Virus record (IMG/VR): IMGVR_UViG_3300032282_001987
Reading direction: 5' to 3' (one strand)
Source of the DNA: an uncultured virus (IMG/VR IMGVR_UViG_3300032282_001987)
Lineage: Duplodnaviria; Heunggongvirae; Uroviricota; Caudoviricetes
Length of the DNA stretch: 64,000 bases
Shown here one piece after another: positions 6,290-60,604 of this stretch (positions within the stretch are counted from its first letter, which is position 1; every line of letters starts with the position of its first letter). The notes under the pieces were generated by a model. That model was not told where the DNA came from, made no database searches, and saw only the letters and a program-made list of their open reading frames with translations. Position numbers and translations under genes: made by a program.

Positions 6290-8056
6290 TCATAGCGGGG
6301 GAGGAGGGGGAGGTACTCCCGCCGGGGCTGCTTCAGGTCCACCTACTGCTGGGCCTATCTCAGCTGGCATCTGTTCTGGGTTCTCTTCGTCCGGCATGTT
6401 CTCAGCCGTCTCAGAATCTGCTTCTAGATCACCGGAACTGATACCTATACTACGTAGATCGCCACCTGATGCTTCACTATCTTCAGGTTTCTCTCTTTCT
6501 TCGAACCACATACGGCTGTTCTTCTCGATCTCTTCCTCAGACAAGCCCAAGAATCTTTCCATAGCGAAACGTTTACTGACGTATGGGAACGCTTCCATAG
6601 TCTGGAATACTGTGACACGTGCTGAGTCTAGTTCACTCTGGCGATATGCAGCGAAATTTTGCGGTGCATTAAACTTGATATCGAACAGACTGCTATCGAT
6701 ATTGAGGCCGCGCCAGCGCATGAATAGTTTGAACTCATCATTGAGTTTCTGGCTGATATATTTCTGCAATCTCTCACAGTATTGATTGAATCTGAACTCT
6801 TGTATCATAGCCGTTCCTACACGGCCATCGCTCAATGGTGTAGGATTGTCTTCAGGACCTTGCGGTAGATAGCTGCTAGGAACACGTAGACCACGCGCTA
6901 ATCTGTTATTGAAATAGCGCAAGTCATCGATCTCACCTAGATTCTGTCCACCTTGCAGTGTAGTGACATCGCTACCCCTACCATCAGCAGTGACTGGGAA
7001 GAAGTAATCTTCGTTCATGCTCAATGGGTTATATGTAGAATCTAGCACGCTCTGACCACCCTGTATGCTTGGAATCCTGCGCTGATGTATCTCATTCTTT
7101 ACACGGTCTACGAAAGCCATGGCCATATGACTTGGCATGTTACCCACATCGATCTTGAATATCCTGCGCTCTGGGGCGCGTTGTATACGATAGATCAATA
7201 TAGCATCTTCTAACAGTTCTTTCTGCTTGAACACTTTGAAGATGTTCTCTAACACGCTCTGTCCAAAAGGCCAGTAACGATCTAGACCTTCTGTCAAGCT
7301 GAGATGCACAACGTGTTTAGCATCGACAGCCGCTTCGTTCAACCCCATGCTGAATCTGCTTCCTGTAGTAGAAGGCTGATTGGGTACCGTATAAGTATGT
7401 GGTGCGCTATAGCCACCTGCTCCCGTAGGAGTCTGGAAATCTGTGCTGATCTTCTCAGCGATAGTCAAGTTCTGTAGATTAGGGTTGATATCTTTGACAA
7501 CGTATTGCTCAGGTTTCTTTCCCTCTGTCTCATTGACGATGACCTTAGTCAGTTTAGTCATATCTACCCAGTATAGCTTGAAATTCTCTGGATCGCGTAT
7601 GAAAATCTGATCGCCAAACTTGATCGTGTTGCGGAAAATCTTGAACGCCCTAGTCTCGAATTCGTTCAATTTGCACCATTGTTGCAGTTGTTTCTTCACG
7701 ATATCTACTTCGTGTGGGGTAGGATCCTCATTGAAAACTATCTCGAATGGTGTCCTGTTCTGTTCGTTTAACTGTGTGCTGAACTCAGCGATGATGTCTA
7801 AGCATGCATTGACTTCAGCATCTGCATCCATCATCTCATATTGATTATAACGCTCTACGCGATTTGGGTGTCCTGTGTATACTTCAGGTAATCTGTTCTG
7901 ATAGTTCCTGTATGATACATCTGTGTTATTCGTACCAGTACTAGCAGTCACCCCATAACCATCACCATTCCAAGCTCCATTATTGCTATTGGAACCCGAT
8001 ATAGGACTCATCTGACCCGTTAGATTGGGTGCGCGGAAACGTTTTTTGTATGCCAT
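6290..8056 (-). CDS. gp20: Portal vertex protein (gp20-like)
   Basis: LLEDAILIYRIQRAPERRIFKIDVGNMP, EDYFFP, TLQGGQNLGEIDDLRYF, LRVPSS motifs. Confidence 0.96.
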   Translation of the reverse strand: MAYKKRFRAPNLTGQMSPISGSNSNNGAWNGDGYGVTASTGTNNTDVSYRNYQNRLPEVYTGHPNRVERYNQYEMMDADAEVNACLDIIAEFSTQLNEQNRTPFEIVFNEDPTPHEVDIVKKQLQQWCKLNEFETRAFKIFRNTIKFGDQIFIRDPENFKLYWVDMTKLTKVIVNETEGKKPEQYVVKDINPNLQNLTIAEKISTDFQTPTGAGGYSAPHTYTVPNQPSTTGSRFSMGLNEAAVDAKHVVHLSLTEGLDRYWPFGQSVLENIFKVFKQKELLEDAILIYRIQRAPERRIFKIDVGNMPSHMAMAFVDRVKNEIHQRRIPSIQGGQSVLDSTYNPLSMNEDYFFPVTADGRGSDVTTLQGGQNLGEIDDLRYFNNRLARGLRVPSSYLPQGPEDNPTPLSDGRVGTAMIQEFRFNQYCERLQKYISQKLNDEFKLFMRWRGLNIDSSLFDIKFNAPQNFAAYRQSELDSARVTVFQTMEAFPYVSKRFAMERFLGLSEEEIEKNSRMWFEEREKPEDSEASGGDLRSIGISSGDLEADSETAENMPDEENPEQMPAEIGPAVGGPEAAPAGVPPPPPPL

Positions 8057-10934: not shown

Positions 10935-10945
10935 GTTTTGACCGT

Positions 10946-10953
10946 TATAAATA
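10946..10953 (+). promoter_or_regulatory. Late promoter TATAAATA for the gp26-like gene
   Basis: Exact T4 late consensus in the divergent intergenic region. Confidence 0.65.
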
Positions 10954-10968
10954 TTCAGTACTGTAGTG

Positions 10969-10975
10969 TATTTAG
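10969..10975 (-). promoter_or_regulatory. Putative late promoter variant CTAAATA for the tape-measure-like gene
   Basis: TATTTAG on the + strand, 34 nt upstream of the ATG at 10934. Confidence 0.45.
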
Positions 10976-11006
10976 TACCGTATTTTACTCCAAAATAAGG
11001 ATCTAT

Positions 11007-11834
11007 ATGAATGAAGTAAACCCGTTAAAGCAATATTTCCGCAGGCCTGCATTGTATCTGAAACTACCTAGCGAAGGCTTAGGCTATGCAGAAGGATCGT
11101 TGAATCTGCCTGAGAACGGCGAATTGCCCGTGTATCCTATGACTGCGATAGATGATATCACTACCAAGACTCCGGACGCGTTGTTCAATGGATCAGCGGT
11201 AGTAGAGATCATAAAGAGTTGTGTACCCAATATCATCGATCCTTGGGAAGTCAATGGTTTGGATCTAGACCCTATCCTAGTAGCTATACGTACTGCTAGC
11301 ACAGGTGACAAGATGGAGATCGAGACTGTCTGTCCAGCTTGCAGCGAAGATTCGAAATATGATGTGAATCTGTCTATGATTCTTGCTGGATTCCGTGCAG
11401 GTGATTACGCTACACCTACTAGACTGGGTGATCTAGTGATCAAATTCAGACCACTAAAATACAGAGAGATCAACAAGGCCAACACTGAGCAGTTCAACAT
11501 CCAGCGCATGCTAGGTAACCTAGAAGCTATGCCCGAAGGGGAAGAAAAGATCACTCGGGGCAATGAATTAGTGAAAGTGATAGGTGAGATGACTATGCAA
11601 TTGATCGCCAACACAATCGAATACATCAAGACTCCCGAAGCGACAGTATTAGACAAGAACTACATATATGAATTTCTGTCCAATGTAGATAAGAAAACAT
11701 ATGATGAGATCCAGAGTGTGGCATTCGAGTTACGCAAGTCTACAGAGAACAAACCATTAGATGTCAAGTGTATCCATTGCTCACATGAGTTCCAGCAGAC
11801 CTTCACAGTAAACGTATCTGATTTTTTCGGTTAA
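11007..11834 (+). CDS. Baseplate hub assembly protein / tail chaperone (T4 gp26-like)
   Basis: NPLKQYFRRPALYLKLPS, PMTAIDDI, ILVAIRTAS, two CxxC pairs, ends SDFFG. Start moved to ATG 11007, which has an AAGGA RBS. Confidence 0.75.
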   Translation: MNEVNPLKQYFRRPALYLKLPSEGLGYAEGSLNLPENGELPVYPMTAIDDITTKTPDALFNGSAVVEIIKSCVPNIIDPWEVNGLDLDPILVAIRTASTGDKMEIETVCPACSEDSKYDVNLSMILAGFRAGDYATPTRLGDLVIKFRPLKYREINKANTEQFNIQRMLGNLEAMPEGEEKITRGNELVKVIGEMTMQLIANTIEYIKTPEATVLDKNYIYEFLSNVDKKTYDEIQSVAFELRKSTENKPLDVKCIHCSHEFQQTFTVNVSDFFG

Positions 11835-12058
11835 GGCTTCTCTCCCTTGACTCCGAGGGTGTTAGTAAGCTGATAGAGCAATACGAAAAGGAGGTCAATG
11901 CCATAAAGCATCAAGCATTGAAAATGTCTTGGTACATGCGTGGTGGCATATCCTATACGGATATATTGAATCTATCTTGGCCTGAGAGAGAATCTATCAG
12001 TAAGATAATAGAGGAAAATCTTGAGACTACGAAGAACAGCAAATTACCATTCTTCTAA
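11822..12058 (+). CDS. gp51-like small ORF, probably reached by -1 frameshift from the upstream gene (independent ATG at 11924 also possible)
   Basis: 78 open codons between TGA (11819-11821) and TAA (12056-12058): FFRLRLLSLDSEGVSKLIEQYEKEVNAIKHQALKMSWYMRGGISYTDILNLSWPERESISKIIEENLETTKNSKLPFF. Not in the ORF track. Confidence 0.7.
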   Translation, partial: FFRLRLLSLDSEGVSKLIEQYEKEVNAIKHQALKMSWYMRGGISYTDILNLSWPERESISKIIEENLETTKNSKLPFF

Positions 12059-12552
12059 CCGTAATTATTCATTGTAATAACTTAGGCTTATCTCTGAAGA
12101 TGACCTACGGTCATCTAATACCTCACTTGTATTCGCTTCGCTCACACATCGTTCGGTATTCTTTTTACTGTTATCAATCTATCTGCTTCTAGACATGACT
12201 TGCCGCTTTGAAGCCATGGTAGTGCTATTCAGCACTACCAATGGTGACTTGCCATGCCCGTCATCCTTTGCTATCTATTCCCACTAGATCGGCTATTTGT
12301 GCCACCTAGTGCTACCGGTTGCCCTGTAAAGTTTATGGACTGTAGTGAGGCTGTCAGATATTATTGATTCCTCAGCAACGCATGTATCATGGTGTCAAGA
12401 TAGAGTAACCATGATCTCATTCAGGGTTCGCTTTGACGATTGCCCTGTCGGTATTCCGTGTCTAATGTTCTGACACGCTTGCTCCAGATCTGTCAGCACA
12501 GCACTACCTGTACAAACTCAAGGAGGATTGGGGAACCCCAATCAGACGAATT
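12059..12552. ncRNA. Candidate large structured non-coding RNA or structured cis element (family unknown; - strand slightly favoured)
   Basis: No ORF in the track; at least seven inverted repeats (12098-12116, 12217-12240, 12282-12311, 12386-12415, 12422-12447, 12457-12477, 12526-12543). Confidence 0.55.
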
Positions 12553-13119
12553 TTATTGAATCGTTTCTGTAGCTATTGTTATATGTGAATTTGACTTGGT
12601 GTCTGGATTTGTTGAGCCTGAATATGCTTTGAAAAGTGCTGTGTTGTGTTTGAAGAATGATGTCATCTCCATGATGTACCAATCCCCATATGTCTTGCTG
12701 CCATAGAACACGAAATTATCTGTGATCCATGTCAGTTTTGGTTGTACTGCTACATATCTTCCTATGCGATTGAACTTCATAAAAAGTATGTTGAAATCCC
12801 CTTCATCTTCTACTTCTAGTAACTGATCTAACCAAGAATCGAACTGTTTGCATTCACCTGTCAATAACAAGTGGAATGGAAAATTAGCATAGAATTTGCA
12901 TTCAGTATTCAATCTAGGAAAACTCTGTCCAGGAACGATATCGCCCTTGAAACTACGTATCTGCCCTTCATGCAACACTTGTGTGCGTGATTGATTCTTG
13001 CCGCCCACATATGCGCCACTGCCCGGGGCGCGTATGAAACTCTCCCCGTACAATTCGCTGAGATATTTAGCTATCTCTCGCTCGAATCCTGACCCTTTTG
13101 CTTTCTGTGGACTTGGCAT
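12553..13119 (-). CDS. Holliday junction resolvase-like PD-(D/E)xK nuclease
   Basis: KAKGSGFEREIA...R.PGSGA...GDIV...ECKFY pattern of Hjc-type resolvases; next to gp46/gp47. Confidence 0.8.
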   Translation of the reverse strand: MPSPQKAKGSGFEREIAKYLSELYGESFIRAPGSGAYVGGKNQSRTQVLHEGQIRSFKGDIVPGQSFPRLNTECKFYANFPFHLLLTGECKQFDSWLDQLLEVEDEGDFNILFMKFNRIGRYVAVQPKLTWITDNFVFYGSKTYGDWYIMEMTSFFKHNTALFKAYSGSTNPDTKSNSHITIATETIQ

Positions 13120-13124
13120 GCTAC

Positions 13125-13132
13125 TACTTATC
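13125..13132 (-). promoter_or_regulatory. Putative late promoter GATAAGTA, 5 nt before the resolvase ATG
   Basis: TACTTATC on the + strand; no SD between box and ATG. Confidence 0.5.
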
Positions 13133-13151
13133 AGCTACTTTCTATTTTAAA

Positions 13152-14915
13152 TTATTCTATGTCTACTGCTGTGTTGTATGTGGTGAAACCATTCTCTTTG
13201 ACCACTTTCAACACGCTAGGCACACGTCCGGCTAGTTCTTCTCGGTGACTCACTAGCCATATCGACTTCTGCCTGCGCCTGCTCATCTCTTTCAAGATGG
13301 CTATGCTGTTCTCTACACCCATAGTATCTAACCCGCTATCGATCAATTCATCGATGAACAGTGTATTGATGGGTTGATATAAGTTCTCCCATACATCACG
13401 GAACGCGAAACTCAGTCCCAAGATCAGTCTATTACGCTCACCCCTAGATAGATTGTCGAAATCTAACTCACGACCTAGTTCAGTGATCTCCACAGTCAAG
13501 TCATTGAGGAACACGACCTGATGCGGCAATCCTATACGGTCTAGATAGTGTGTCAATCTAGCATTGAGATAGCTGAGGTTCTGGTCGATGATCTTTTTAC
13601 GGACGAAGCTGTCTTTGCTAGTCAATATGTCTAACAGGAACTTCTGATGATCCATCTTGCGTGTCAGTACATTGATAGTGTCGAAGTTTACCTCTTGCAA
13701 TGCTTGGTTCTCCATGTCTACTATCTGCTCGGCATATGGATCGACTTCTTGTATCTTAGCTTCGATCTGTGTACCTAGATTGTTGAATTTGCTGCGATGC
13801 TCTACAGCCTCTTCTTCAGTATCGTAATAGAGTTTTGGTTGCTTACCTATCTCTCCTATAGCCTCTTTGCTGGCTTTCAATTGATCAGCTTGATCTACAA
13901 GAGCAGTCAACGTCTCGGTAGCGTCTTCTAACGCTTTCTTTTTATCTTCCAATACTTTCTTATGCTTCTCATCGTGGAACTCTTGTCCACAAGTATGGCA
14001 TTTGTGTTCGTTCAATGTCTCTATCTCAGCATTGAGCTTGGTTATAGACTTGATCTCTCTATCCGTATCAGTTCCGTTACGTGTGATAGACTTGTCTATG
14101 TCCTCATGCGCTTTCTTGCGCTGATTATATGCGGCTAAGTCTTTGTGACCCTGCAACTCAGCATTGATATCTAGTTTAGATAACTCATCATATTCTAATT
14201 GCAATTTATTCAGATCATCTTTGTGTTTGTTAGTCCACAATGTCTGGCGACGTTTCAATGCCTCGATCTGTTCTATGATGCGCTTGTTAGCTTCTTCTAC
14301 CGCTTTGATGCGATATTCTTCTGCTTGTATGTTGTCTTTGCTGTCTTTGATCAGGTTCTTGATGATATCAGCCTTCTCGGACAACAATGTGATGCCCAAT
14401 AACTGCTCTATGATGTTCCTCTGATCATTAGACTTCATAGCCAAGAAAGGTTCGCTATACGTGTTCAATGCTATGATATGCTTGAACATATCAGGAGTCA
14501 TGTTTATCACACGCTCGATGGCTTGCTGTGTCTCACGGCTATCGCCCTGCGCATCGTCCTGCACTTTCTGCAAATCATTGTTGACATAGAATCTGAGTAT
14601 GTTTGGTTTGCGACCACGCTCGATCTTATATTCGATGCCGGACACACTGAACTCTAGTGTGACCATCATGCCTTTGCCATTCGTGCGATTGGCTAGGTTA
14701 TCTTTGCGTATGCTGTTGATAGGCAATCCAAACAATGCATAGCTCAGACCTTGTATCAACGAGGTCTTGCCTGTACCATTACGTGCGCCATCACCTCCCA
14801 GATCCAAGTTCTCTCCCAAGATCAATGTGAGGTCTTGCCTGTCGAAGTTGACCGCTTGTGTGACTTGCCCTACGCTCAAGAAATTGCGCAGGGTGATGTT
14901 TTTCAATGAAATCAT
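13152..14915 (-). CDS. gp46: Recombination endonuclease subunit, Rad50/SbcC-like ATPase (gp46)
   Basis: Walker A NGTGKT, zinc hook CHTC in a coiled coil, signature LSRGE, Walker B LFIDE, H-loop VSH. Confidence 0.95.
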   Translation of the reverse strand: MISLKNITLRNFLSVGQVTQAVNFDRQDLTLILGENLDLGGDGARNGTGKTSLIQGLSYALFGLPINSIRKDNLANRTNGKGMMVTLEFSVSGIEYKIERGRKPNILRFYVNNDLQKVQDDAQGDSRETQQAIERVINMTPDMFKHIIALNTYSEPFLAMKSNDQRNIIEQLLGITLLSEKADIIKNLIKDSKDNIQAEEYRIKAVEEANKRIIEQIEALKRRQTLWTNKHKDDLNKLQLEYDELSKLDINAELQGHKDLAAYNQRKKAHEDIDKSITRNGTDTDREIKSITKLNAEIETLNEHKCHTCGQEFHDEKHKKVLEDKKKALEDATETLTALVDQADQLKASKEAIGEIGKQPKLYYDTEEEAVEHRSKFNNLGTQIEAKIQEVDPYAEQIVDMENQALQEVNFDTINVLTRKMDHQKFLLDILTSKDSFVRKKIIDQNLSYLNARLTHYLDRIGLPHQVVFLNDLTVEITELGRELDFDNLSRGERNRLILGLSFAFRDVWENLYQPINTLFIDELIDSGLDTMGVENSIAILKEMSRRRQKSIWLVSHREELAGRVPSVLKVVKENGFTTYNTAVDIE

Positions 14916-15925
14916 AGACTGTTATATATTTCTAAGAGTAATTTCTTATCATAGAACTCGCTCTCGATAGCACCGATCTGATCGATGATGATCTGATCCA
15001 CGCTCTCGAACTTCAGTTCTCCTGGTGCTAAGTCTTGCGTGTGCTGTTCTAGTTTTATAGGTATCAATGCCATCTCACGCAATCTATGTTTAGGAATCAA
15101 TGTCTCACGTATGAAATTGGCTTCTTCATAGCTGATATCTATGTCTAGGTGAACTCTAACATTACTATCAGGTAATAGCAAGCCTTCGTTCTCCAATACC
15201 TCGCTCAATTTATATACACGGAACACGGGCTGCTTGTCCCAGCTATGGAATATCGGGTCTTGTCCCCACTCTAATATCATCATACCGCGGGCATCGTCGC
15301 CTGCGTCAGCATAGTTATGCGGGAAAGCATTGCCTATATACCAGATATTCTTCCTAGCTTGCCGTTTATGGAAGTGACCGCTGAACGCAGTATCGAAACC
15401 ATGGAAATGATCAGCATTGATCTCTCCGTGATCTGGCATCTCTACCATGGCATTCATAAAGAACTGTGGTAACTCTAAGTGACCGAACAGATACTTGCCC
15501 GTCAACTTCTGTACCTTCTTGTAATCGTCTTGTACTAACCATGGTGCTATGACTACATCACCTTCGTTGAACCAATCATTGACGATAGTGACGTTTGGTA
15601 GATGTTTAGCCCACTCTACGCTGTGGATATCACGGCGATCACGATAATATAGATCGTGATTACCTGGGATAAAGAACACACGATCAAAGTTATCGCTGAG
15701 TTTCTCTAAAGCCCTGAGTCCATATTGCATAGTGTGGATATTGATGCTAGCACGATGATGGTTCCAGTCTCCCAGAAACATGCATGTCTCGCAATCTTCT
15801 TCTTTTGCCTTCTTGATGAACCAATCGACAAAATTCTCGCAATCGTTATTATGCTGTAGGCTGTTAGACTTCAATCCAAAATGAATATCAGTAAAAACAG
15901 CAGCCTTCTTGAATAGGTTAGTCAT
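14912..15925 (-). CDS. gp47: Recombination nuclease subunit, Mre11/SbcD-like (gp47)
   Basis: Metallophosphoesterase motifs DIHFG, LGD, GNHD, GH, SGHFH; ATGA overlap with gp46. Confidence 0.95.
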   Translation of the reverse strand: MTNLFKKAAVFTDIHFGLKSNSLQHNNDCENFVDWFIKKAKEEDCETCMFLGDWNHHRASINIHTMQYGLRALEKLSDNFDRVFFIPGNHDLYYRDRRDIHSVEWAKHLPNVTIVNDWFNEGDVVIAPWLVQDDYKKVQKLTGKYLFGHLELPQFFMNAMVEMPDHGEINADHFHGFDTAFSGHFHKRQARKNIWYIGNAFPHNYADAGDDARGMMILEWGQDPIFHSWDKQPVFRVYKLSEVLENEGLLLPDSNVRVHLDIDISYEEANFIRETLIPKHRLREMALIPIKLEQHTQDLAPGELKFESVDQIIIDQIGAIESEFYDKKLLLEIYNSL

Positions 15926-15972: not shown

Positions 15973-16866
15973 TCATTCTTCGTATACGTTATTGCTGCTA
16001 GATTGGCGACTCCAGCTTGGGTTCAATCCATTCATCTCTAAGATATCATCACGTATATTCTGATTGCGTTTCTCGCTGTTCAGTACACGGCAGAAACTAT
16101 TGGTGATAGCCGCAGTATAGTAAGCGAATGGGTTAGCACTCTTGGCTTCGTTGAATCTCAAGCCCACATAAGTCAACTGCAAGATAGCACTATTACGCAT
16201 CTCATCGTTGTATGTGTAACCGCGCCAATTGAACTTCATGGCGTATTTCTCGCACATCATTATATACATTCGGGCTAACTTATTGGTGATGTTCCCATGA
16301 TCTTTAGAGAACTCACCACCGTCTAATGTACCTTTCCAGTGGCTCTTACCGATACACTGGAATGTCTTGTTCTCGTCCATCCTGAAATGCTGGAACGGGG
16401 GAAAATTGACCTTGACATGAACCATGTCATCGACTTCTGCTTTGAAGGTATTGTCTTCTAACTCAGCGAATAATGATTCAGCTGGGTCCTCGAACTCGAA
16501 GATATCTTTAGCGGTCTTCTTTTTATCCGATTTGCGGGCTTGTTTTGGGGCGACCGGGATATGATCCCAAGTCATTATCCTGAATACTAGATCGCTATAA
16601 GGGATGTTCCTAGTTGTTATTTTCTCGCCAGTTTCCTGTAGAATCCTTGCTGCTCTAGCTTCTTTCGCAGCCTTGATACTGCTTGGTTTTGACGCATATT
16701 TGAGGCTCTGCTCTATGGTATTTGTGGGTAAATCTACAATGAAATCATATCTATGATCGTTTTTGGGGTCTAGATATGTGCAATATGTGTTCTTGCTTGC
16801 ATGGATTTCTTTGAGAATATCCTTGTTATTCAAATAATTTATTGGTTTCTTTGATGGGATAGACAT
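15973..16866 (-). CDS. gp55: Late-transcription sigma factor (gp55-like)
   Basis: NYLNNKDIL N-terminus; NWRGYTYNDEM and FNEAKSANPFAYYT motifs; adjacent to gp47 as in T4-like phages. Confidence 0.85.
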   Translation of the reverse strand: MSIPSKKPINYLNNKDILKEIHASKNTYCTYLDPKNDHRYDFIVDLPTNTIEQSLKYASKPSSIKAAKEARAARILQETGEKITTRNIPYSDLVFRIMTWDHIPVAPKQARKSDKKKTAKDIFEFEDPAESLFAELEDNTFKAEVDDMVHVKVNFPPFQHFRMDENKTFQCIGKSHWKGTLDGGEFSKDHGNITNKLARMYIMMCEKYAMKFNWRGYTYNDEMRNSAILQLTYVGLRFNEAKSANPFAYYTAAITNSFCRVLNSEKRNQNIRDDILEMNGLNPSWSRQSSSNNVYEE

Positions 16867-28887: not shown

Positions 28888-31800
28888 ATGGCAACAAGAG
28901 TCAGAACAATCGATTTCTTACCAGAAATCTTTAGGACAAAAACTAACGAACAGTTCTTAAGTGCTACACTAGACCAACTCGTACAACCTCCTGAGTATAA
29001 GAGGATACAGGGTTATATAGGTAGCAAGTTTGGTTATGGAGTCCAAGCAGAAGATACCTATCTAGCAGAATCTACTAAGGCGAGGAGAGATTATCAGTTC
29101 GAACCTGCAGTGGTATTTAAGAAAAAAGATACGACTACAGCTATCGATGCGATCACCTATCCCGGTCTATTAGATTCGTTAGGAATCAATGGAGCACTGA
29201 CAGGTAAAAACGATAGGCTTTTCGAGAACGAATTTTATTCTTGGGATAGTTTTGTCGATCTAGATAAACTTATAAATTATAGCCAGTACTACTGGTTGCC
29301 TATGGGTCCGGATGCTGTCACTGTAGCTCTAGATTCTATCTATACCGGTGATACCTTCACTGTCACATCTAAAGATATATCATATAGTTTTGAAGGTAGA
29401 CTCATCAAATTCAATCAAGATAACCCTATAATAACTTTGGTGCGCGGTGGCACATATGAATTCGATGTGAGCCAGACTACTAATTTCTGGGTACAGACAC
29501 AACCTGGTACTAGTGGTTATGATCCTGTCAATACTAATTTCTCTACTAGAGAAGTATATGGTGTGACGAATAATGGTACTAAAAGCGGCAAGATCATATT
29601 TGATGTTCCTTTATCCACCGCACAAGATGATTATAGCTATGCCGGCAACGGGACAGTAGATATAGTCACTTCTAAATCAGTAGATGAGATACATGGAAAA
29701 AAGTTAAGTGAACTAAAAGACATCGATGGCATCAGCAATCTCAATGGGAAAACATTATTGTTTTACGGTCACACTCCCGCTGAGACTGGATTCTTGGGTA
29801 CGTTTTTTGATGATGCTTCGGGCTTCGACGGTGATCCCAATAATGATGGGTATCCTAACTTCGAAGAAGGTAGCTATACAGTACTAAACAACAATGTGTA
29901 TCTGATACAATATTTTGGAGATCCCACAGATCCCATCATAAAATTATCCGAGTATAGCCTATTACCCAATGATGAGAAAATAACAGCATTATTAGGCAAT
30001 CAATACGCTAATCGAGGATTCGTCAGAAACGCATATGGTGAGATAATCTTATTACCATTCATAACTGCTAACTTAGACACCTTATACTACCAAGATAGTA
30101 GCAATGCAGATAAGTTTGGTATGATCAAATTAGTCGATACTGTCAGCAGCCAATCTATCAACATAGAGACAGATGTGTTAGGTAAAAAGACGTTCACTAG
30201 CTCGAATGGTATAAAATTCACTAATGGATTGAAAGTAAAATTTGTAGGTACGGTGTATCCAGAATCATATAAGCAGGATGAATACTATGTAGAGGGTGTA
30301 GGTACTAGCATCGTATTACTACCGGTGAGCGAACAACAGGTGCCTGAGACGTTTGCAGAAGCGTATTATGCTCCCTATGATATGTCCCCGTATGATTCTG
30401 AGGTATATGGTAGCGCATTGTCTGTACCTAAGATACCAGATTATATACTCATCCACAGGAATAGCATAAACAAGAATGCATGGAGCCGCAGCAATCGTTG
30501 GTTCCATATCGATGTGTTGAATTATACATTAGAAAAGAATTCTAATACTCCTAACATAGATGCAGCATTCAAGAGCACGACCACTAGAGCCAGACGTCCG
30601 ATCATCGAGTTCTATCCTAATATCAAATTGTTTAATTCGGGTACTATGGGTAAAGTGCCAGTCGATTACATAAATTATTCTGTGACCGACGCATTCAATC
30701 AAGTCGAAGGTAAGTCATCTTTCGTCATCGATGGTAATAGTAGCGTCATGTTTGATGGTGCAAGAGTGATATTTGCAGGTGACACCGACCCCGAAGTAAG
30801 GAACAAGATTTATACAGTCGCAGTAGCCAGAGTAGCTACGGGCGGCCCACAAGTCATAACGTTGAGTAAATCATTCGATGGAGATGTTTTATTCAACGAA
30901 CAAGTAGTCGTCACCAAAGGCGAGACTTATCAAGGACGTTCTTTTTATTTTGATGGATCTAATTGGATAGAAGCACAACAAAAAGAGAAGGTCAATCAAC
31001 TACCTAGATTTGATGTATTCAATTCTTCTGGTATAAGTTTTGGAGATCAAGAATACTATCAAGGTAGCGATTTTGATGGATGTACATTATTCCAGTATGC
31101 TGAAGGCACAGGAGCCAATGATCCTGTGTTGGGTTTCCCGATAAAGTATAGTTCTATCACTAATATCGGTGATATCAGTTTCGATGTCAGCATAAACACT
31201 GCTACATTTAATTACGCATACGATAATAAGTCTATCAATACAGTAGTGAACTCTGGTTATGTCCATACTTATGATACTATCGCAGAGTATAAGAGACATA
31301 TTGGTTGGCAGACAGCGGTTGCTCCAAGCGTCCAATATCAGATATTCAATCTGACTTATACAGGAAACGATCTAATCTGCGACATTCCGGTAGACACATC
31401 GATAGAGTGGCCCGCTATCGTGGTCTATGTAGATAATCAACGCACTACGGATTATACATATATCGTAGAAAATGGGGCGACTAAAGTATCATTGACTTCT
31501 CTACCACCACTAGACACGCCAGTAGAGATATTGATCCATAGCGCCAAAGTATCACAGACTGCATATTATCAGATACCATCAAATTTCGATCACAACCCAT
31601 TCAATGAACAATTAAAGACTGTCAACTTGGGTGATCTTCGTGGGCATTTCAAGAGTATCTGCAATAACGTGACTACGTTAGAAGGCTCTGCATTCGGACC
31701 TAATAATTATCGAGATTTAGGAAACATAGTACCATATGGTACTAGGATCATACAGAACAGCGCATCGATGATTGCCCCTTCTATATTCTTGAAGGAATCG

Positions 31801-34800
31801 AATAACAATTTCTTGAATGCACTGCGCTATAACGCTACTGAATATGTTAAATTCAAGACAGTATTGATGGATACTGTCAACAAAACAGACTATAACATAT
31901 TGAGTAAAAACGCAGATATACTAGACGATGCACTAGATCAGATTACTAGTGTCAAAAATGATACTAATCCATTCTTCTGGAGTGATATGATCCCTTCGAA
32001 GGGTGCAGCGATCACCAAGAGTTATACTTTCAAGAGTGGATTGACATCATCATATTTCAATCTATCTAAAGTATATGATTTCAAGAATGCTAATTATGCC
32101 GGACTATTGATATATCTGACTAGAAATGTCGATGGTATATTGCGTACAATCCAATTAGTGAAAGACGTAGATTACAATATCAGTGAGACTGATAAATTTG
32201 TCAAGATAGAGAAAGACTTATTGGTGAATGATGTCATCACTATCAAAGAATATACACAGACTTATGGTAGTTTCGTACCAAACACACCTACTAAACTAGG
32301 TCTTTACCCTTCGTTCATCCCGTCAGTGATCTTAGATAGTTCTTATCTGACACCTACTTATTTCATCCAAGGTCATGATGGTTCATACACTAAGTTGCAT
32401 GGTGCATATAATGATGGATACTTAGAAGATTTCAGAGATAGGGTACTATTAGAGTTTGAGACTAGGATATACAACAACTTGAAAGTCAACGCCACTATAC
32501 CATTAGAGGCTGATGACGTAATTCCTGGTCAATTCAGGACGACTGATTACTCATATGATGAGATAGAGCAGATATACTCTGCACAGTTCTTGAATTGGGT
32601 AGGATTGAATCGCATCGAGTATATTCCACAGACATATTTCAAGACCAATGAATTCACTTGGAACTATAATAAGTCCATCAACAAGTTAGATCAGACCACG
32701 TTGAAGCAAGGCAATTGGCGTGGTGTGTATCTGTGGTTATATGATACTGCTAATCCAGATACTAAGCCATGGGAGATGCTGGGACTATATAACAAACCTA
32801 CATGGTGGGATACTAGATACGGTGATGCACCATATACTAGTGATAACACATTATTGTGGACAGACATAGCCAATGGTAGTGTATGGAATAATGGTTCCCC
32901 ATATATCAATACGAAGAGGGTCCGTCCTGATCTATTGAAAGTATTACCAGTAGGTTCTACGGGAAGATTAGTATCACCTTTCACAAGCATAGTGAATTCA
33001 TATGATGTAGATACGTTCCGTAATGACTGGAGCGTGGGTGATATGGGACCAGCTGAATATAGCTATCGCAAGAGCAGCACATGGCCCTTCGACCTCATGC
33101 ATATCTTTGCATTGACCAAACCAGCAAGATTCTTCGCTTTGGGATTGAACCTCGACACATACAAATACAACGCAGAGTTCGATCAGTATCTTGTTAACGA
33201 TAGATCCAGGACAGAATTCTACAACAATGAAGTCTATGGAAAAGATGATACTACATCCACACATAGCTATCTGAACTGGATCGTAGATTATTTGAATCAA
33301 TATGGAGTCGATGGATACCAGCAAATCTCAGATTTGATATCGAATGTCGATGTCAGATTAGCCTATAGGATGGCTGGCTTCAGCGACAAATCATTATTGA
33401 AATTCTTCGCTGAGAAAGGTTCACCTAACAGCAAGAATAATTCATTGTTGATACCTGATGAGAGTTACAACATAATACTGTACCAGAATGAACCATATGA
33501 GAGCATAATCTATAGTTCACTGATCGTACAGAAAACTGTGAACGGTTACAAAGTCTATGGCAACGGACAAGAGAAAGCATACTTCATAGTCAATGTTCCT
33601 ATGAAGAATGGAGCATATGATGTAGTAGAAGTCAGTGCGAATAAAGTGTTCTTGGCTAAGAATCATTTCACTAAGACCGTCATCGTTCCATATGGCACTG
33701 AGTTCACTTCTATACAAGACTTAGCTGATTTCGTATACGGATATGGATACTATCTAGAACAACAAGGTGTAACTTTTGATGATGTCGAGAGTGCTATCGA
33801 GTTGAACTGGAAGCAGATGGTGGCTGAGATATTATATTGGGTGTCGTCTGGTTGGGAAGTAGGAAGCACAGTGAACGTCAATCCATGTGCTAATCAGATC
33901 ACCATCAAAAATGATAGTGGTGTCATCCAACCATTGACTATGTTCCAAGATAATTTCATATTGAATCAGAACTTAGTTCCTATACAGCCGAAAGACTTAG
34001 CTATCACCAGAGTAGATACGACATTCATTGCTAAAGCATTGAACTCAGGTGACACTATCAGTTTCTTGAAAGCTAAAGTCAATAGCATAGAACACCTAGT
34101 AGTGTTCGATAATTCCACTGTGTTCAATGACACGATGTTTAATCTGATCACTGGTCTGCGCCAGCAGAGGATATATGTCAAGGGAGTAAAGACTGCTAGT
34201 TGGAACGGTACTATGACAGCAGCAGGTTTCATCATCAACCAAGACAATATAGAAGAATGGAAGTCAAACGTCAAGTACAATAAAGGTACTATCGTAAAAT
34301 ACAAGAACGAATACTGGGTCGCTAATAAAGTCACAATCGTACCTAACGTCAAGTTCAATACTGAAGAATGGCATAAAACAGTATATGAAGATATACAGCT
34401 TGGTCTGTTGCCTAACCCAAGCACTAGGGCATATGAATCTACATTATACTATAACACCAATGTAGCTAATCTAAAACAAGACGCAGATTTATTGAGTTTC
34501 TCATTGATAGGATATCGCCCACGAACATATCTAGCTGAAGCTAATCTGGATGACACGACACAAGTGAACATCTATAAGAATCTGTTGAGCAATAAGGGAA
34601 CGAGGCATTCACTAGATGCATTGATCGGCGCTACATTGCAACAGACCAAGATGAATTACACCCTTCACGAGAATTGGGCTATAAAGAAAAGCGAGTTCGG
34701 TGGCATCCTCAATAAGAATTTCATAGAAGTAACATTAGATGAATCTAAACTATTAGGTAACCCAGCAACAATCGCAATAACTCACGCCAACGATGTCGAT

Positions 34801-37800
34801 GGCATAGAACAGCAGATACCATTGCATTCTATAAAGAATTATGCATACACTGTTAACAACACAGATATATTACCTACGATACCGTCTACTACTGCTAGTG
34901 AGTTGCCTACTGCGGGATATGTCAATCTAGATGATGTTCGTCAGACTTCATATTATGTCAGCGGACTCGATGACGCATTGATAGGTGATCTATACAAGAA
35001 TGATTATATATGGGTAGCTGATAAAGTAGGCGAATGGAAAGTATATACTCCATTGCCATTGGGTGTCAATCTAGTGTCTGTGTTGAATAACTTGAACGGC
35101 ACGGCGACATTCACGTTTGACGGACATCATAATCTCAGCGAAGATGATCCTTTCGGAATCATCAACTTCGACACTAGGGTAGATGGTTACTATATCGTGA
35201 CGACGGTCTCTAATCTGACCACAATAGTGGTATCCCTGTCATTACCTACCGCGGTCACTACTATAAAGGGTTCAGGTCTAGGTTTCAGCTTAGTTAACCA
35301 GCGTGTGAGCGTAGCAAAAGACATACTCGGTCTACCAGTCACCAACGCTGAATATGTAAATAATAAAGTCTGGGTAGATAGCGATCCAAACAATGAATGG
35401 TGTGTGTATCGTAAATCTATCAATTACAAACCTGAAGATTTCTTGAAGCCTATATCTACCGAATTCGGTGGCGCAGTAGCAATAACTAAACTGGGATATT
35501 TCGTATCTGACCCTAGCGAAGGTAAGTTATACAATTACCGAGACAATGCTGGATTCTTATATCTATACAATACTATAACAGAAGTTAGCGGCTATGGAAA
35601 AGTCGTAGTACATAACGATGATATCATGGTGGTCTCTAAGCCAGATTCGTTCGGTGACAGCGTGCTATATGTATATCGCATGGTCAAGAATGACAGAGTT
35701 GTAGCACTTGTAGAAGAACAGATAATATTGCTAGGTGGCTATTACGTAGGTGAGGCCATGGCTCTGTCCGGTGATGGTAATTATCTATATGCTAGCTTAT
35801 TCAACGATGTAGATGTAGGAGCAGTAGTCGAGTTCCAACGCAATCAATATTATACACCGAGCAATGTAGGATTAGTATTGAGCGAGGCCACTATCTCTGG
35901 CACTAAAGAATTCGTGTGCTATGGTGATGTGACAGCAGGTGCTACACCTGGAAAATATGTCACCTTCGCACCATCCGGATATGGGATACTGACAAAATTG
36001 GCATATACTATCGTCACTGCCCAGTACAATCCATCTACCGATAATACTAGATTCTATGTCTATGAAGAAATTCCATATTCTTTCCCAGAAGGGACAGAAG
36101 TATTGAGACAGAGCGTCAGCTATACATTATTAGGGGCAGTCACATCCGAAGGTCTATCTATAGGTACTGATAGGTTCGGCTATAGCATGGCTACCAACTA
36201 TGATGGTACTAAGTTGTTTGTTGGGTCCCCACAATCAGATTTTAATTATTCAAATCAAGACACTGGTTATTCTTTCGTGTACGATAGATTAGTGGAGAAT
36301 TGGGAACTACAAGCAGATACTCCACCATATGCATTCAGCTTATTCTTCATGCCATGGTCACCTGCTTATGGATCAGCAGTATATGTGAACGGAGAAAGAT
36401 TAGATGTTGGTTATTATCTGATCGTATCTAACTTGTTGATCATGTCCATGCCATTAAAGTCTGGTGACATCATCACTGTGAGCAGCGGAAACATGGTATT
36501 GAAGCAAGAACTAGCTAGCTATGATGTATTAGAAGATATAGATCCAGGTGAGAAGTTTGGCTTCACTATGGATTGCAACAGTTCAGGTAGCGAATTGATC
36601 GTAGGCAGCCCCTTCAATCTAAACGCACAGCGCAAAGAAGGTGCAGTGTTCCGCTATACCAACGAAGGTAAACGCTTTGGTAGGATTACAGGTATAATAC
36701 AATGTAACCTACTATCAGGTACATATATATTGATCAATGGTTACGGAGTCAACATACCACATGGTGGTAATGCATTGTATGTCGCTAACGTGATCAATCA
36801 GAACATCATCACTAATGTGTTCGCATATGCTACAGAAGATAACAGGCTAGTGATACGCTTGCGTGATATGGATCTGAATCCAGTCAATAACAAGTTGAAT
36901 CTAACTGTATTGAATGGCACTATCTTGGCAGAGTTGGGCATCGCTGATTATCTAAAGACACAAGTCATATTAGACCCACACTCAGAGGGCAGGACGCAGT
37001 TTGGATATACAGTCAAGTTCAACGAGAATAATTCCTTCGTTGTCAGCGCACCAGTAGCTAATCGCTATCTAGGAACTTTCTTCGACAGGATCGAAGATGA
37101 TGATACACACAACGATACTGTGTTCGACAACAACTTCACTACCTGGGAAGATGAATTCACAGATGCAGGTAGCGTGTATATGTATGATTACATAGAATCA
37201 TATGGCGAGACGTTATCTACTTTCGGCAACTATATCTATGCACAGTCATGCAATGACACGATAAGTGATTACGGCAAGCAACCATACTATGGTGAGAAAC
37301 TAGCGTTCCGTGATAATAAACTATTGATCGGTGTGCCTAGATTCAAGCCAGATGACGAGGGCGGTAGGGTAGTATTTTACAAGAATAATCTCGGTAAACC
37401 AGACTGGAGCGTATTCAGGAAATCTTCTGATGTAGTAGATATCTCTAAGATACAGCGCATACAACTTTACAACAATATATCTGATGTGACTATCAGTTCA
37501 TTAGATTATTTCGATCCATTGCAAGGTAAATTATTAGGTCCTGTCAGAGAGAATATCGATTTCATCTCAGGCGCGGATCCTGCAGGTTATAACAATCCAT
37601 CTGAATTCAAAGGTAATCTAGTATGGGGCAAAGAACAGGTCGGTAAGATCTGGTTCGATGTGACTACGACGAAGTTCATCAATTATCACCAAGAAGATAT
37701 CCAATATAACATCAAATACTGGGGTAATGTTTTTCCGGGAAGTACTGTCACAGTATATACTTGGATAGAGAGCAATGTCATCCCTGCATTGTACATAGGT

Positions 37801-53416: not shown

Positions 53417-53434
53417 ATATCAAGGCGAGGTTAG

Positions 53435-55970: not shown

Positions 55971-55971
55971 T

Positions 55972-59319: not shown

Positions 59320-59327
59320 GAATAACT

Positions 59328-59924: not shown

Positions 59925-59934
59925 AAAGAAACAG

Positions 59935-60477: not shown

Positions 60478-60482
60478 GCTAT

Positions 60483-60602
60483 ATGATCAACGAGTTATTA
60501 CAGAAACTTTATGAGCGAACCATATTTAAATTAGTTCGGGAATATAGATATCGTAAGCGCCTAAAAGAATTACGGAAACGAGATCCGTTCATATATAAGT
60601 GA
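60483..60602 (+). CDS. Small basic peptide, 39 aa, ending RDPFIYK (not in the ORF track)
   Basis: MINELLQKLYERTIFKLVREYRYRKRLKELRKRDPFIYK; fills the gap directly before the carbamoyltransferase. Confidence 0.7.
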   Translation: MINELLQKLYERTIFKLVREYRYRKRLKELRKRDPFIYK

Positions 60603-60604
60603 CT

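What the first reader, a model, noticed from the sequence alone, without database searches (positions are those of the whole stretch)
12059..12552. ~490-nt hairpin-dense non-coding region: candidate undescribed large phage ncRNA
Seen: the only long ORF-free gap in a window where genes otherwise abut or overlap. Stems include AGATGACC/GGTCATCT (12098-12116), AATACC/GGTATT (12117-12160), TGGTAGTGCT-ATTC-AGCACTACCA (perfect 10 bp, 12217-12240), CACTAG/CTAGTG with an inner GGC/GCC (12282-12311), ATCATGGT/ACCATGAT (12386-12415), CAGGG/CCCTG (12422-12447), CGTGTC/GACACG (12457-12477) and GATTGGGG/CCCCAATC (12526-12543). This is much more structure than a bidirectional terminator needs, and I do not recognise it as tRNA, tmRNA or RNase P. 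Inference: a multi-domain RNA co-transcribed behind the resolvase, or a structured DNA element (origin or packaging site) next to the recombination genes.
Basis: partly seen in the sequence, partly recalled or inferred. Interest (0 to 1): 0.85.

Follow-up and report, generated by a model that had tools for sequence, protein, structure and literature searches.

The report
Large pseudoknotted RNA of jumbo phages
The gap holds the gene for a roughly 450-base, intricately folded non-coding RNA that is kept in hundreds of uncultured giant T4-type phages and resembles no described RNA family, so it is a new large phage RNA whose job is still unknown.

Summary

The gap encodes a non-coding RNA of about 446 nt (12543 down to 12098) on the MINUS strand. 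It starts at, or overlaps, the stop codon of a PD-(D/E)XK "resolvase-like" nuclease gene.

- **Structure:** On 76 non-redundant relatives, a model of 17 helices and 96 pairs, including two pseudoknots and a four-way junction, is 95% paired (32-45% in slid controls). Of the 96 pairs, 75 show compensatory changes.
- **Strand:** G-U cells outnumber A-C cells 310 to 50, which fixes the strand and argues against a double-stranded DNA element.
- **Linkage:** The RNA follows the nuclease gene in every relative with enough sequence. It is single-copy in 4 of 4 complete 352-367 kb genomes.
- **Not found elsewhere:** It is absent from Rfam, from 50,697 cultured-phage records, from one genome for each of 185,579 prokaryote species, and from PA5oct, SCTP-2 and Phosso.

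Function is not shown. I favour a folded RNA acting on its own, as a ribonucleoprotein part or self-assembling "ornate" RNA tied to the recombination module. No expression data could be found.

This scan already noted the same RNA class on another genome (e1-5367875). This report adds the strand, both pseudoknots, a non-Watson-Crick covarying pair and the wider distribution.

The parts
12098..12543 (-). Whole RNA element as defined by conserved structure (P1 to P12), about 446 nt. The true 5' and 3' ends are unknown.
   Evidence: The gap is conserved at 70-78% identity in all 80 protein-seeded loci. A structure of 96 pairs is supported.
12526..12543 (-). P1, the 5' hairpin. In some relatives it overlaps the stop codon of the nuclease gene.
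   Evidence: 5 of 6 pairs changed on both sides, 91.7% of cells paired. In 10 of 54 rows of A1 the gap starts inside P1.
12517..12525 (-). CUCCUUGAG. CUCCUUGA is invariant and the final G is kept in 97 of 109. Its CUCC is predicted to pair with GGAG at 12482-12485 (helix Px).
   Evidence: CUCCUUGA is invariant in 109 of 109 sequences and the last G in 97 of 109; Px pairs are CG/UA/CG/CG in 109 of 109. Alignment pair probability is about 1.0. No variation, so covariation cannot test it.
12493..12516 (-). P2, a variable hairpin enclosed by Px.
   Evidence: 5 of 8 pairs changed on both sides. In 109 sequences the base pairs 48-67 and 49-66 change compensatorily.
12479..12492 (-). J2/3, a conserved joining segment (consensus CGGAUCUGGAGUA) that contains the GGAG strand of Px.
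   Evidence: Positions are kept in 79-109 of 109 sequences.
12457..12478 (-). P3 hairpin. It carries about 40-nt insertions in a few relatives.
   Evidence: 3 of 3 alignable pairs changed on both sides. Insertions are seen in L007, L011, L014 and L079.
12313..12453 (-). Core four-way junction: P4 (12449-12453 with 12313-12317) closes P5 (12422-12447), P6 (12382-12420) and P7 (12374-12379 with 12318-12323). P7 encloses the variable hairpin P8 (12347-12373) and the invariant ACUACAG (12340-12346).
   Evidence: Pairs changed on both sides: P4 3 of 5, P5 4 of 5, P5a 2 of 3, P6 10 of 11, P7 4 of 6. 97-100% of cells are paired. ACUAC is invariant in 109 of 109.
12271..12403 (-). Pseudoknot PK1: the loop of P6 (12399-12403) pairs with 12271-12275.
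   Evidence: 5 of 5 pairs changed on both sides, 95.8% of cells paired. Found without prior assumption. Holds in 109 sequences.
12279..12339 (-). Pseudoknot PK2: UCC(C) at 12337-12339 pairs with GGGA at 12279-12282. P9 (12282-12311) lies between the two strands.
   Evidence: PK2: 4 of 4 pairs changed on both sides, 97.9% paired. P9: 9 of 11.
12198..12317 (-). 3' core: P9, the pseudoknot 3' strands, the conserved GGAUGACGGGCAUGGCAA segment, P10 (12217-12240) and GCGGCAA (12200-12206).
   Evidence: Covariance model R1 gives one hit in the 64-kb window: 129.6 bits, E 2.2e-27, minus strand. The P10 stem is unchanged in 107-109 of 109 sequences at 7 of its 8 stem pairs and in 101 of 109 at the outer U-A pair.
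12098..12147 (-). 3' module behind a variable A/U-rich linker: P11 (12119-12147) with a conserved GAGCGAAGCGA-type loop, and P12 (12098-12116).
   Evidence: P12: 7 of 8 pairs changed on both sides, 99.5% paired. P11: 4 of 4 and 2 of 2, but raggedly aligned. No terminator-like site was found.
12553..13119 (-). PD-(D/E)XK nuclease gene (188 aa) directly upstream of the RNA on the same strand.
   Evidence: Pfam PF24608 PDDEXK_15, E 5.1e-23. PHROG 244 'RusA-like Holliday junction resolvase', E 2.1e-17. D60 and E73-x-K75 are invariant.

Best explanation
The gap is the gene of a large non-coding RNA, about 446 nt, read from the minus strand. It is made either as the 3' extension of the transcript that carries the late-sigma (gp55-like), SbcD/gp47-like, SbcC/gp46-like and PD-(D/E)XK nuclease genes, or from a start just inside the end of the nuclease gene.

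**Fold.** The RNA has three parts.
- A 5' domain: P1, then the invariant Px helix enclosing P2, then P3.
- A compact core: a four-way junction (P4/P5/P6/P7) locked by two pseudoknots (PK1, PK2), a sequence-invariant hairpin (P10), and 49 invariant unpaired positions.
- A 3' module of two hairpins behind a floppy A/U-rich linker.

**How it most likely works.** I think it acts through this fold as a free RNA in trans, not as a DNA site or a mere terminator. It would be a protein-binding scaffold or a self-associating 'ornate' RNA, most plausibly serving the recombination and late DNA-processing module it is always attached to.

**Shown:** conservation, structure, strand, non-coding nature, fixed linkage to the nuclease gene, single copy per genome.

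**Inferred:** that it is transcribed, where its ends lie, that it acts in trans, and any partner.

My odds: it is an RNA gene, about 0.9; it acts as a stand-alone folded RNA rather than in cis, about 0.6; the whole statement, 0.55.
For: **Conservation.**
- The gap is 70-78% identical in all 80 loci found through the neighbouring protein, which is itself only 70-83% identical.
- A gap of 377-609 nt persists in 73 of 76 loci that have both flanking genes. The other 3 are longer (917, 1422 and 1422 nt).

**Structure on 76 sequences under 96% identical (mean pairwise identity 70%).**
- 96 pairs in 17 helices.
- 95.1% of 7186 cells paired, against 32.4-45.3% with partners slid by 1-3 columns.
- 75 of 96 pairs changed on both sides, against 29-35.
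- Covariation score 0.442, against at most 0.076.
- 0 of 500 shuffles reach any of these measures.
- Both pseudoknots also emerged from structure-blind scans.

**Strand.** 310 G-U/U-G cells against 50 A-C/C-A cells. Folding z is -4.69 on the minus strand and -2.85 on the plus strand.

**Not coding.**
- 704 of 818 indel runs are not multiples of 3.
- Column entropy is flat over codon positions (0.61, 0.65, 0.66).
- The median longest stop-free run is 66 codons.

**Linkage.**
- Among loci found through an RNA motif alone, 73 of 73 with enough upstream sequence carry the nuclease gene (72 on the same strand). Only 74 of 78 carry the usual downstream gene.
- In a second set seeded with a divergent nuclease, model R1 hits 78 of 80 loci on the nuclease strand. 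The other 2 loci are cut short.
- The RNA is single-copy in 4 of 4 genomes rated 100% complete, 352-367 kb.

**Core.** There are 49 invariant unpaired and 32 invariant paired columns among 337 core columns. This is a pattern seen in RNAs with tertiary cores or fixed partners, which I state from general knowledge of RNase P, group I introns and OLE/GOLLD/ROOL.
Against: - No expression evidence exists. No RNA run holds the region.
- No promoter or terminator could be assigned. The scan found 0 terminator-like sites, and 7 sigma-70-like sites against 3.6 expected, none convincing. The conserved TA(A/C)AAT-like motif before P1 is only a guess.
- The RNA could therefore be just the structured 3' UTR of the nuclease mRNA and act in cis.
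- Cultured relatives carry the nuclease without the RNA: PA5oct, SCTP-2 and Phosso (R1 best E 1.03). So the nuclease family does not need it.
- The shuffle control does not correct for shared ancestry. I rely mainly on the slid-partner control and on repeated independent changes.
- A2 was made by MAFFT and I chose the structure on it, which favours the observed values somewhat.
Confidence: 0.55

Rival explanations
1. The RNA is a partner of the adjacent PD-(D/E)XK nuclease. It would be a cofactor, guide, decoy or inhibitor. One form of this idea is that its four-way junction mimics the branched DNA that a junction-resolving enzyme binds, holding the nuclease in check or targeting it.
For: - The RNA follows the nuclease gene in 73 of 73 motif-seeded loci and 78 of 80 protein-seeded loci.
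- The downstream neighbour changes in 4 of 78 loci.
- P1 overlaps the nuclease stop codon in 10 of 54 relatives.
- Nucleases linked to the RNA carry a C-terminal tail of about 20 aa that the RNA-less homologues of SCTP-2, PA5oct and Phosso lack.
- The RNA core is a four-way junction.
- The catalytic D...ExK motif is intact.
Against: - All loci come from one phage clade, so constant adjacency may be plain synteny.
- Homologous nucleases work without the RNA in cultured phages.
- No variable 'guide-like' segment with an identifiable target was found.
- Nothing shows that this nuclease binds RNA. Its structure model was too poor to use (pLDDT 54.5).
- The extra tail may simply be translation running into the RNA's upstream region.
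Confidence: 0.2
2. The element acts in cis as a 3' UTR. It would be a structured cap that protects the recombination-gene mRNA from 3' exonucleases, or that insulates the two convergent transcription units, with no function as a free RNA.
For: - It lies exactly between convergent genes.
- It starts at the stop codon of the upstream gene.
- It ends in two hairpins, P11 and P12.
- No separate promoter could be identified.
Against: - A protective or terminating element needs one or two hairpins, not about 330 nt of pseudoknotted core with 49 invariant unpaired positions.
- The core is the most conserved part, while the 3' hairpin region and linker vary most.
- No U-tract terminator is present.
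Confidence: 0.12
3. The RNA is a self-associating RNA, in the manner of the phi29 packaging RNA or of ROOL/GOLLD cages. One or both 'pseudoknots' would really be contacts between copies, building a ring or cage used in virion assembly or DNA handling.
For: - Covariation cannot tell intra- from intermolecular pairing, and PK1 is a loop-to-single-strand contact of 5 pairs.
- The gene sits at the border of the structural module, near the portal and baseplate genes.
- Large ornate RNAs of phages and bacteria were shown to form homo-oligomers (Kretsch et al. 2025, PMC12286853; abstract seen in the listing).
- The invariant CCAUGG after P10 is self-complementary.
- Recalled, not from a call: the phi29 pRNA loop-loop pairing was first read as a pseudoknot.
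Against: - No direct evidence exists.
- Both pseudoknots are sterically plausible within one molecule, because their 3' strands are adjacent and follow P9.
- T4-type packaging motors are not known to use an RNA (established knowledge, not tested here).
Confidence: 0.08
4. The RNA is a ribozyme. It would either cut itself out of the operon transcript or catalyse another reaction.
For: - The core is compact and double-pseudoknotted, with many invariant unpaired nucleotides.
- The RNA must be separated from the mRNA if it acts alone.
- One covarying pair keeps identical bases (G/G 72, U/U 22, C/C 6 of 109), as precise tertiary contacts do.
Against: - No Rfam ribozyme family matches, even at E up to 10.
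- By eye I saw no hammerhead or twister core. This was a check from recalled consensus sequences only.
- The large orphan RNAs named above (OLE, GOLLD, ROOL, raiA) have no shown catalysis (recalled).
Confidence: 0.08
5. It is a DNA element, such as a replication origin, packaging site or recombination hotspot, that works as structured single- or double-stranded DNA next to the recombination genes.
For: - It lies beside the gp46/47-like and resolvase-like genes.
- It is hairpin-dense.
- Recalled: T4 origins depend on transcripts that form R-loops.
Against: - 310 G-U cells against 50 A-C cells mean that the opposite strand cannot keep the helices. This rules out cruciforms.
- Pseudoknots and a non-canonical covarying pair are RNA-type constraints.
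- No iterons or direct repeats were seen in the alignments. I did not run the repeat finder.
Confidence: 0.04

Closest known systems
GOLLD, ROOL and OLE: large 'ornate' bacterial and phage non-coding RNAs (Rfam families; cryo-EM in Kretsch et al. 2025, PMC12286853)
   Same: They are several hundred nucleotides long, multi-domain and pseudoknotted. They have many invariant unpaired nucleotides. They were found by comparative analysis of metagenomes, GOLLD partly from lake water. They are often carried by phages or prophages, and their function is unknown.
   Different: There is no sequence or model similarity: 0 Rfam matches at gathering scores in 64 kb, and only 2 chance-level matches at E up to 10. 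This RNA is smaller than GOLLD (recalled: about 800 nt). It sits in virulent T4-type jumbo phages only. It is not next to tRNA genes (0 tRNAs). It is always behind one particular nuclease gene. Oligomerisation is untested.
TnpB/IS605 omega (re)RNA, Rfam RF03065 IS605-orfB-I
   Same: It is an RNA that begins in or at the 3' end of a nuclease gene and extends downstream on the same strand. The only sub-threshold Rfam match in the gap is to this family.
   Different: The match is at chance level: 18 bits against a gathering score of 94.2, E 0.26, and it covers the variable 3' module, not the core. The nuclease here is a 188-aa PD-(D/E)XK enzyme, not a RuvC-type TnpB. No transposon ends or guide segment were identified.
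phi29 packaging RNA (pRNA)
   Same: It is a phage-encoded structured RNA whose covarying loop contacts could be intermolecular, and it lies near structural and packaging genes.
   Different: pRNA is about 170 nt (recalled). Rfam holds a pRNA family (recalled) and nothing matched here. T4-type terminase motors are not known to need RNA.
RNase P RNA and group I introns (large pseudoknotted catalytic cores)
   Same: They have a multi-helix junction closed by long-range helices and pseudoknots, and invariant joining segments.
   Different: No Rfam match to any RNase P, group I or group II model. There are no flanking exons, because the next gene is on the other strand. No reverse transcriptase is found in 4 of 4 complete genomes.
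Candidate structured RNAs of IMG/VR (Fremin, Bhatt, Kyrpides 2023, PMC10690425)
   Same: That study used the same data source (IMG/VR intergenic regions) and the same logic (covariation). It reports candidates next to resolvase and RusA genes.
   Different: Its candidates are 29-151 nt long and are described as upstream of genes (passages read). This RNA is about 450 nt and lies downstream. Fragments of it may be in that catalogue, but the alignment archives could not be opened.

Membership tests
Any Rfam 15 family (4227 models) | Score at or above the family's gathering threshold | tested here: not met
   0 matches in the whole window. With E up to 10 on 11800-12800 there are only RF03065 (18 bits against 94.2) and RF01724 (14.9 bits against 35).
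tRNA / tmRNA | Cloverleaf, or tRNA-like domain with a tag reading frame | tested here: not met
   ARAGORN finds 0 genes in the window and 0 in four relatives' loci.
Intrinsic (bidirectional) terminator | G+C-rich hairpin followed by a U tract | tested here: not met
   0 terminator-like sites in 11700-13300. P12 is followed by UUCAGAG in the window and by UUUA or UCUC in relatives.
Group I / group II intron | Interrupts a gene, with exons on the same strand; conserved catalytic core (P3-P7 or domain V) | tested here: not met
   The downstream gene is on the opposite strand. There are no Rfam intron matches. No reverse transcriptase in 4 of 4 complete genomes.
TnpB omega RNA (IS605-orfB-I) | Covariance-model match; adjacent RuvC-type TnpB gene | tested here: not met
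   18 bits against a gathering score of 94.2. The adjacent gene is PF24608 PD-(D/E)XK.
GOLLD / ROOL / OLE (as families) | Homology to the family model | tested here: not met
   No match at any threshold used. The resemblance is one of kind, not of descent.
Large ornate non-coding RNA (as a kind) | Over 300 nt, non-coding, multi-domain structure supported by covariation, including pseudoknots | tested here: met
   About 446 nt. 96 pairs, 75 with compensatory changes, two pseudoknots. Not coding.
Large ornate non-coding RNA (as a kind) | Exists as a transcript | not testable with these tools
   No RNA run was available for the region, so transcription could not be examined.
Protein-coding gene missed by ORF calling | Conserved open frame, indels in multiples of 3, third-position variability | tested here: not met
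   704 of 818 indel runs are not multiples of 3. Entropy by codon position is 0.61/0.65/0.66. The median longest open run is 66 codons in any of 6 frames.
Duplex-DNA cruciform element (origin or packaging site) | Helices kept on both strands (Watson-Crick only) | tested here: not met
   310 G-U/U-G cells against 50 A-C/C-A cells in the paired columns.

The most novel reading that the evidence does not exclude
The RNA and the PD-(D/E)XK nuclease in front of it form a ribonucleoprotein in which the RNA controls or directs a DNA-junction nuclease. That would be an RNA-regulated or RNA-guided enzyme of a fold not known to use RNA. Alternatively, the RNA is a self-assembling ring or cage used by a T4-type phage in DNA processing or packaging. 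Either would be a new role for RNA in tailed-phage biology.
Probability: 0.15. Interest if true: 0.95.

Novelty: new variant of a known kind. Interest (0 to 1): 0.78.

Why it matters
Only about a dozen classes of large, intricately folded bacterial or phage non-coding RNAs are known (my recollection). Each has exposed unexpected biology or architecture, most recently RNA-only cages.

This class offers several advantages:
- It has unusually clean comparative support.
- It has a defined genomic partner, a junction-type nuclease in the recombination module.
- It is single-copy.
- It is widespread in giant freshwater phages that have no cultured member.

It therefore gives a concrete target for structure work, since a roughly 450-nt RNA with two pseudoknots suits cryo-EM, and for asking what giant phages use structured RNA for.

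For annotation, it shows that the 'empty' interval behind this nuclease gene in hundreds of IMG/VR contigs is a gene.

Tried and rejected
- **Long-range helix GCUG/CGGC.** The first RNAalifold run predicted it. I rejected it. With 109 sequences the 5' strand changes without compensation (69-452: UC 14, AC 7; 66-455: AC 10), while the competing base of P2 changes compensatorily (49-66: UG 70, CG 29, UA 10).
- **Anti-Shine-Dalgarno decoy.** CUCCUUGA is invariant and matches the 16S 3' end, a resemblance I recalled. I downgraded this idea. CUCC is predicted to pair with an equally invariant GGAG at probability about 1.0. The window holds no mRNA site with extended complementarity beyond chance: 4 matches with at most 1 mismatch, 2.6 expected, one of them the element's own opposite strand.
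- **Promoter.** No sigma-70-type or T4-late-type promoter could be assigned. GATAAATA-like motifs precede several late genes, but the RNA is preceded by TA(A/C)AAT-like motifs of unclear meaning.
- **Expression.** No RNA holder was listed for window 11000-14000, and I did not lay reads.
- **Structure of the nuclease.** AlphaFold2 on a 19-row alignment gave pLDDT 54.5, so I ran no fold search. There is no PDB sequence relative at E up to 1.
- **Cultured relatives.**
  - blastn of the gap against 50,697 phage records: no match.
  - Model R1 over the whole genomes of SCTP-2, PA5oct and Phosso: best E 1.03.
  - An exact P10 pattern in one genome for each of 185,579 prokaryote species: 0 matches.
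- **Other gaps in the window.** The 358-nt and 300-nt gaps hold ORFs and are not structured.
- **Fremin et al. 2023 supplements.**
  - The two zip archives could not be read.
  - Files 3, 5 and 6, searched, held no occurrence of the four nucleotide motifs.
  - File 4, searched, held no occurrence of the two P10 motifs, 'PDDEXK' or 'T4_baseplate'.
Full report
**What is there**

The window is part of a T4-core jumbo phage. Around the finding lie:
- a T4-type portal gene (6290-8056, minus strand);
- a gp26/gp51-like baseplate-hub chaperone gene (10938-11834, plus strand) with a conserved extension frame to 12058;
- on the minus strand, a late sigma factor (gp55-like, 15973-16866), SbcD/gp47-like (14912-15925), SbcC/gp46-like (13152-14915) and a 188-aa PD-(D/E)XK nuclease that PHROGs calls 'RusA-like Holliday junction resolvase' (12553-13119).

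The closest cultured phages by major head protein are the PA5oct group (67.6% identity) and Vibrio phage 2.275.O. The interval 12059-12552 therefore lies between the 3' ends of two convergent gene sets.

**Observation check**

The other apparent gaps of the window hold ORFs of 75 and 99 aa and do not fold better than shuffles. So this is the only real ORF-free stretch.

The gap folds better than dinucleotide shuffles on both strands, and more so on the minus strand (z -4.69 against -2.85; 0 of 100 shuffles as stable in each case).

**Conservation**

A search of IMG/VR with the nuclease protein found 352 relatives, and the best 80 loci were fetched.
- The gap sequence matches all 80 at 70-78% nucleotide identity. 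That is as much as the flanking proteins, which are 70-83% and 54-79% identical at the amino-acid level.
- A gap of 377-609 nt persists in 73 of the 76 loci where both flanking genes were found. The other 3 are longer.
- From 201 loci I obtained 87 distinct elements and 76 representatives under 96% identical, with mean pairwise identity 70%.

**Structure**

RNAalifold on a first alignment gave 76 pairs, 45 of them with compensatory changes. Structure-blind scans for stacked covarying columns and for mutual information recovered the hairpins. They also recovered two long-range helices and two pseudoknots.

The final model has 17 helices and 96 pairs. Counted on alignment A2:
- 95.1% of 7186 cells form standard pairs, against 32.4-45.3% when the 3' partners are slid by 1-3 columns.
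- 75 of 96 pairs have changes on both sides, against 29-35.
- The covariation score is 0.442, against at most 0.076.
- 0 of 500 shuffles reach the observed values.

The architecture, read 5' to 3' on the minus strand (window coordinates):
- P1, 12543-12526.
- The invariant CUCCUUGAG, 12525-12517. Its CUCC is predicted to pair with an invariant GGAG at 12485-12482 (helix Px, probability about 1.0). Px never varies, so it is untestable by covariation.
- P2, 12516-12493.
- P3, 12478-12457.
- A four-way junction: P4 (12453-12449 with 12317-12313) closes P5 (12447-12422), P6 (12420-12382) and P7 (12379-12374 with 12323-12318).
- Inside P7, the variable hairpin P8 and the invariant ACUACAG.
- P9, 12311-12282.
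- Pseudoknot PK2: 12339-12337 with 12282-12279.
- Pseudoknot PK1: the P6 loop 12403-12399 with 12275-12271.
- A long conserved single-stranded stretch.
- P10, 12240-12217. Its stem is essentially invariant in 109 sequences although it is a simple hairpin.
- The invariant GCGGCAA.
- A variable A/U-rich linker.
- P11 and P12, 12147-12098.

One column pair covaries by keeping identical bases: G/G 72, U/U 22 and C/C 6 of 109. This points to a specific non-Watson-Crick tertiary contact.

Of 337 core columns, 49 are invariant and unpaired.

**Strand and nature**

In the paired columns there are 310 G-U/U-G cells against 50 A-C/C-A cells. The helices therefore hold only on the minus strand, the strand of the nuclease gene. 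This excludes a cruciform or duplex-DNA reading and fits RNA.

The element is not coding. 704 of 818 indel runs are not multiples of three, there is no codon-position periodicity, and no frame is conserved.

**Not a known family**

- Rfam 15 gives no match at gathering scores in the whole window. There are only two chance-level matches at E up to 10 in the region.
- ARAGORN finds nothing.
- blastn against 50,697 phage records finds nothing.
- A covariance model of the 3' core (R1) finds one hit in the window (129.6 bits, minus strand).
- R1 finds exactly one hit in each of 4 genomes rated complete, 352-367 kb.
- R1 finds nothing in the whole genomes of SCTP-2, PA5oct and Phosso (best E 1.03). 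There the homologous nuclease gene is followed directly by other genes.
- The exact hairpin pattern is absent from one genome for each of 185,579 prokaryote species.
- The four complete phage genomes encode no reverse transcriptase.

**Linkage**

- Among loci found through the RNA motif alone, 73 of 73 with enough upstream sequence have the nuclease gene. It is on the same strand in 72. The usual downstream gene is missing in 4 of 78.
- A second protein-seeded set, built from a divergent nuclease, gave R1 hits on the nuclease strand in 78 of 80 loci. The other two are truncated.
- In 10 of 54 relatives the stop codon of the nuclease lies inside P1.
- The RNA-linked nucleases carry a C-terminal tail of about 20 aa (…YSGS-TDT(T/K)S…) that the RNA-less homologues lack.
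- The DNA encoding that tail contains a GACAC-N3-GTC word. This word also occurs as a second, non-coding copy in some relatives. I cannot say whether it is a peptide motif or a nucleic-acid signal.

**How it most likely works**

Shown: a conserved, single-copy, non-coding element whose minus-strand transcript would fold into a compact, doubly pseudoknotted core.

Inferred:
- It is transcribed with, or just behind, the nuclease gene.
- It acts through its fold as a free RNA.

The density of invariant unpaired nucleotides, the invariant P10 and Px, and the base-identity covariation suggest either a precise tertiary core or fixed partners. I rank the readings as follows:
- a stand-alone scaffold or self-associating RNA serving the recombination/late DNA-processing module, 0.55 for the whole statement;
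- a direct partner of the nuclease, 0.2;
- a cis-acting 3' UTR, 0.12;
- an oligomeric pRNA/ROOL-like assembly, 0.08;
- a ribozyme, 0.08;
- a DNA element, 0.04.

These readings overlap and are not exclusive.

**Comparison and novelty**

In kind, this RNA resembles GOLLD, ROOL and OLE, which are large ornate RNAs, partly phage-borne and of unknown function. It is not homologous to any of them.

Three literature searches found no description of such an RNA in jumbo or T4-like phages (titles and abstract starts seen).

The IMG/VR-wide screen of Fremin et al. 2023 reports candidates of 29-151 nt only (PMC10690425; passages read). Its alignment archives could not be opened, so fragments of this RNA may be catalogued there.

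An earlier finding of this scan (e1-5367875) described the same RNA class, at about 350 nt, on another genome and also found no known family. My analysis agrees with it. It adds the strand, both pseudoknots, the four-way junction, the rejected long-range helix, the non-canonical pair, the 3' module and the distribution tests.

**Limits**

- No transcript evidence could be obtained.
- The RNA's ends, promoter and terminator are unknown.
- The shuffle control ignores phylogeny.
- The alignment and the structure were refined on the same data.
- All relatives belong to one phage clade, so the linkage to the nuclease may be synteny alone.

Noticed in passing
window 11820-12058 (+): The gp26/gp51-like gene ends with gaT TTT TTC ggt taa, and the -1 frame is open from 11822 to 12058 (78 codons). 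The TTTTTTC run lies just before the stop codon in 74 of 76 relatives, and the extension peptide is conserved at 54-79% identity. This is very probably a programmed -1 frameshift that makes a short and a long hub-chaperone form. Earlier findings of this scan report the same on other genomes and cite Vladimirov, Gautam and Davidson 2022, which I did not read.
   Followed up: partly
window 12590-12610 (-); relatives: A word GACAC-N3-GTC (AGACACCAAGTCA in the window) is kept near the 3' end of the nuclease gene in nearly all relatives, at a variable distance (about 35-75 nt) from P1. In some clades it is duplicated, and one copy lies beyond the stop codon (for example L060). It is either the codons of a conserved DT(T/K)S peptide or a nucleic-acid signal. 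Unresolved.
   Followed up: partly
A2 columns 386 and 451 (window about 12259 and 12206, -): Two unpaired positions covary by staying identical: G/G 72, U/U 22 and C/C 6 of 109. The switches occur in several separate clades. This suggests a homo-base tertiary pair.
   Followed up: partly
window upstream regions listed: GATAAATA or close variants precede several structural genes, for example before 1278-1979, the portal gene, 25514 and 45146. This may be the clade's version of the T4 late promoter TATAAATA. It was not tested statistically.
   Followed up: no
window 28888-44310 (+): A single 5140-aa ORF lies inside the tail/baseplate module. It was not examined.
   Followed up: no
L204 1487-2500 (Sinorhizobium phage Phosso) and L203 979-1641 (PA5oct): Unannotated intervals of about 1.0 kb and 0.66 kb lie near the homologous nuclease genes of cultured jumbo phages. 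Model R1 does not match them. Their content is unknown.
   Followed up: partly
window 50607-62089 (+): A block of sugar-modification genes sits in a virulent jumbo phage: radical SAM, dTDP-4-dehydrorhamnose epimerase-like, three nucleotide-sugar epimerases and a carbamoyltransferase. It may serve DNA or virion glycan modification.
   Followed up: no
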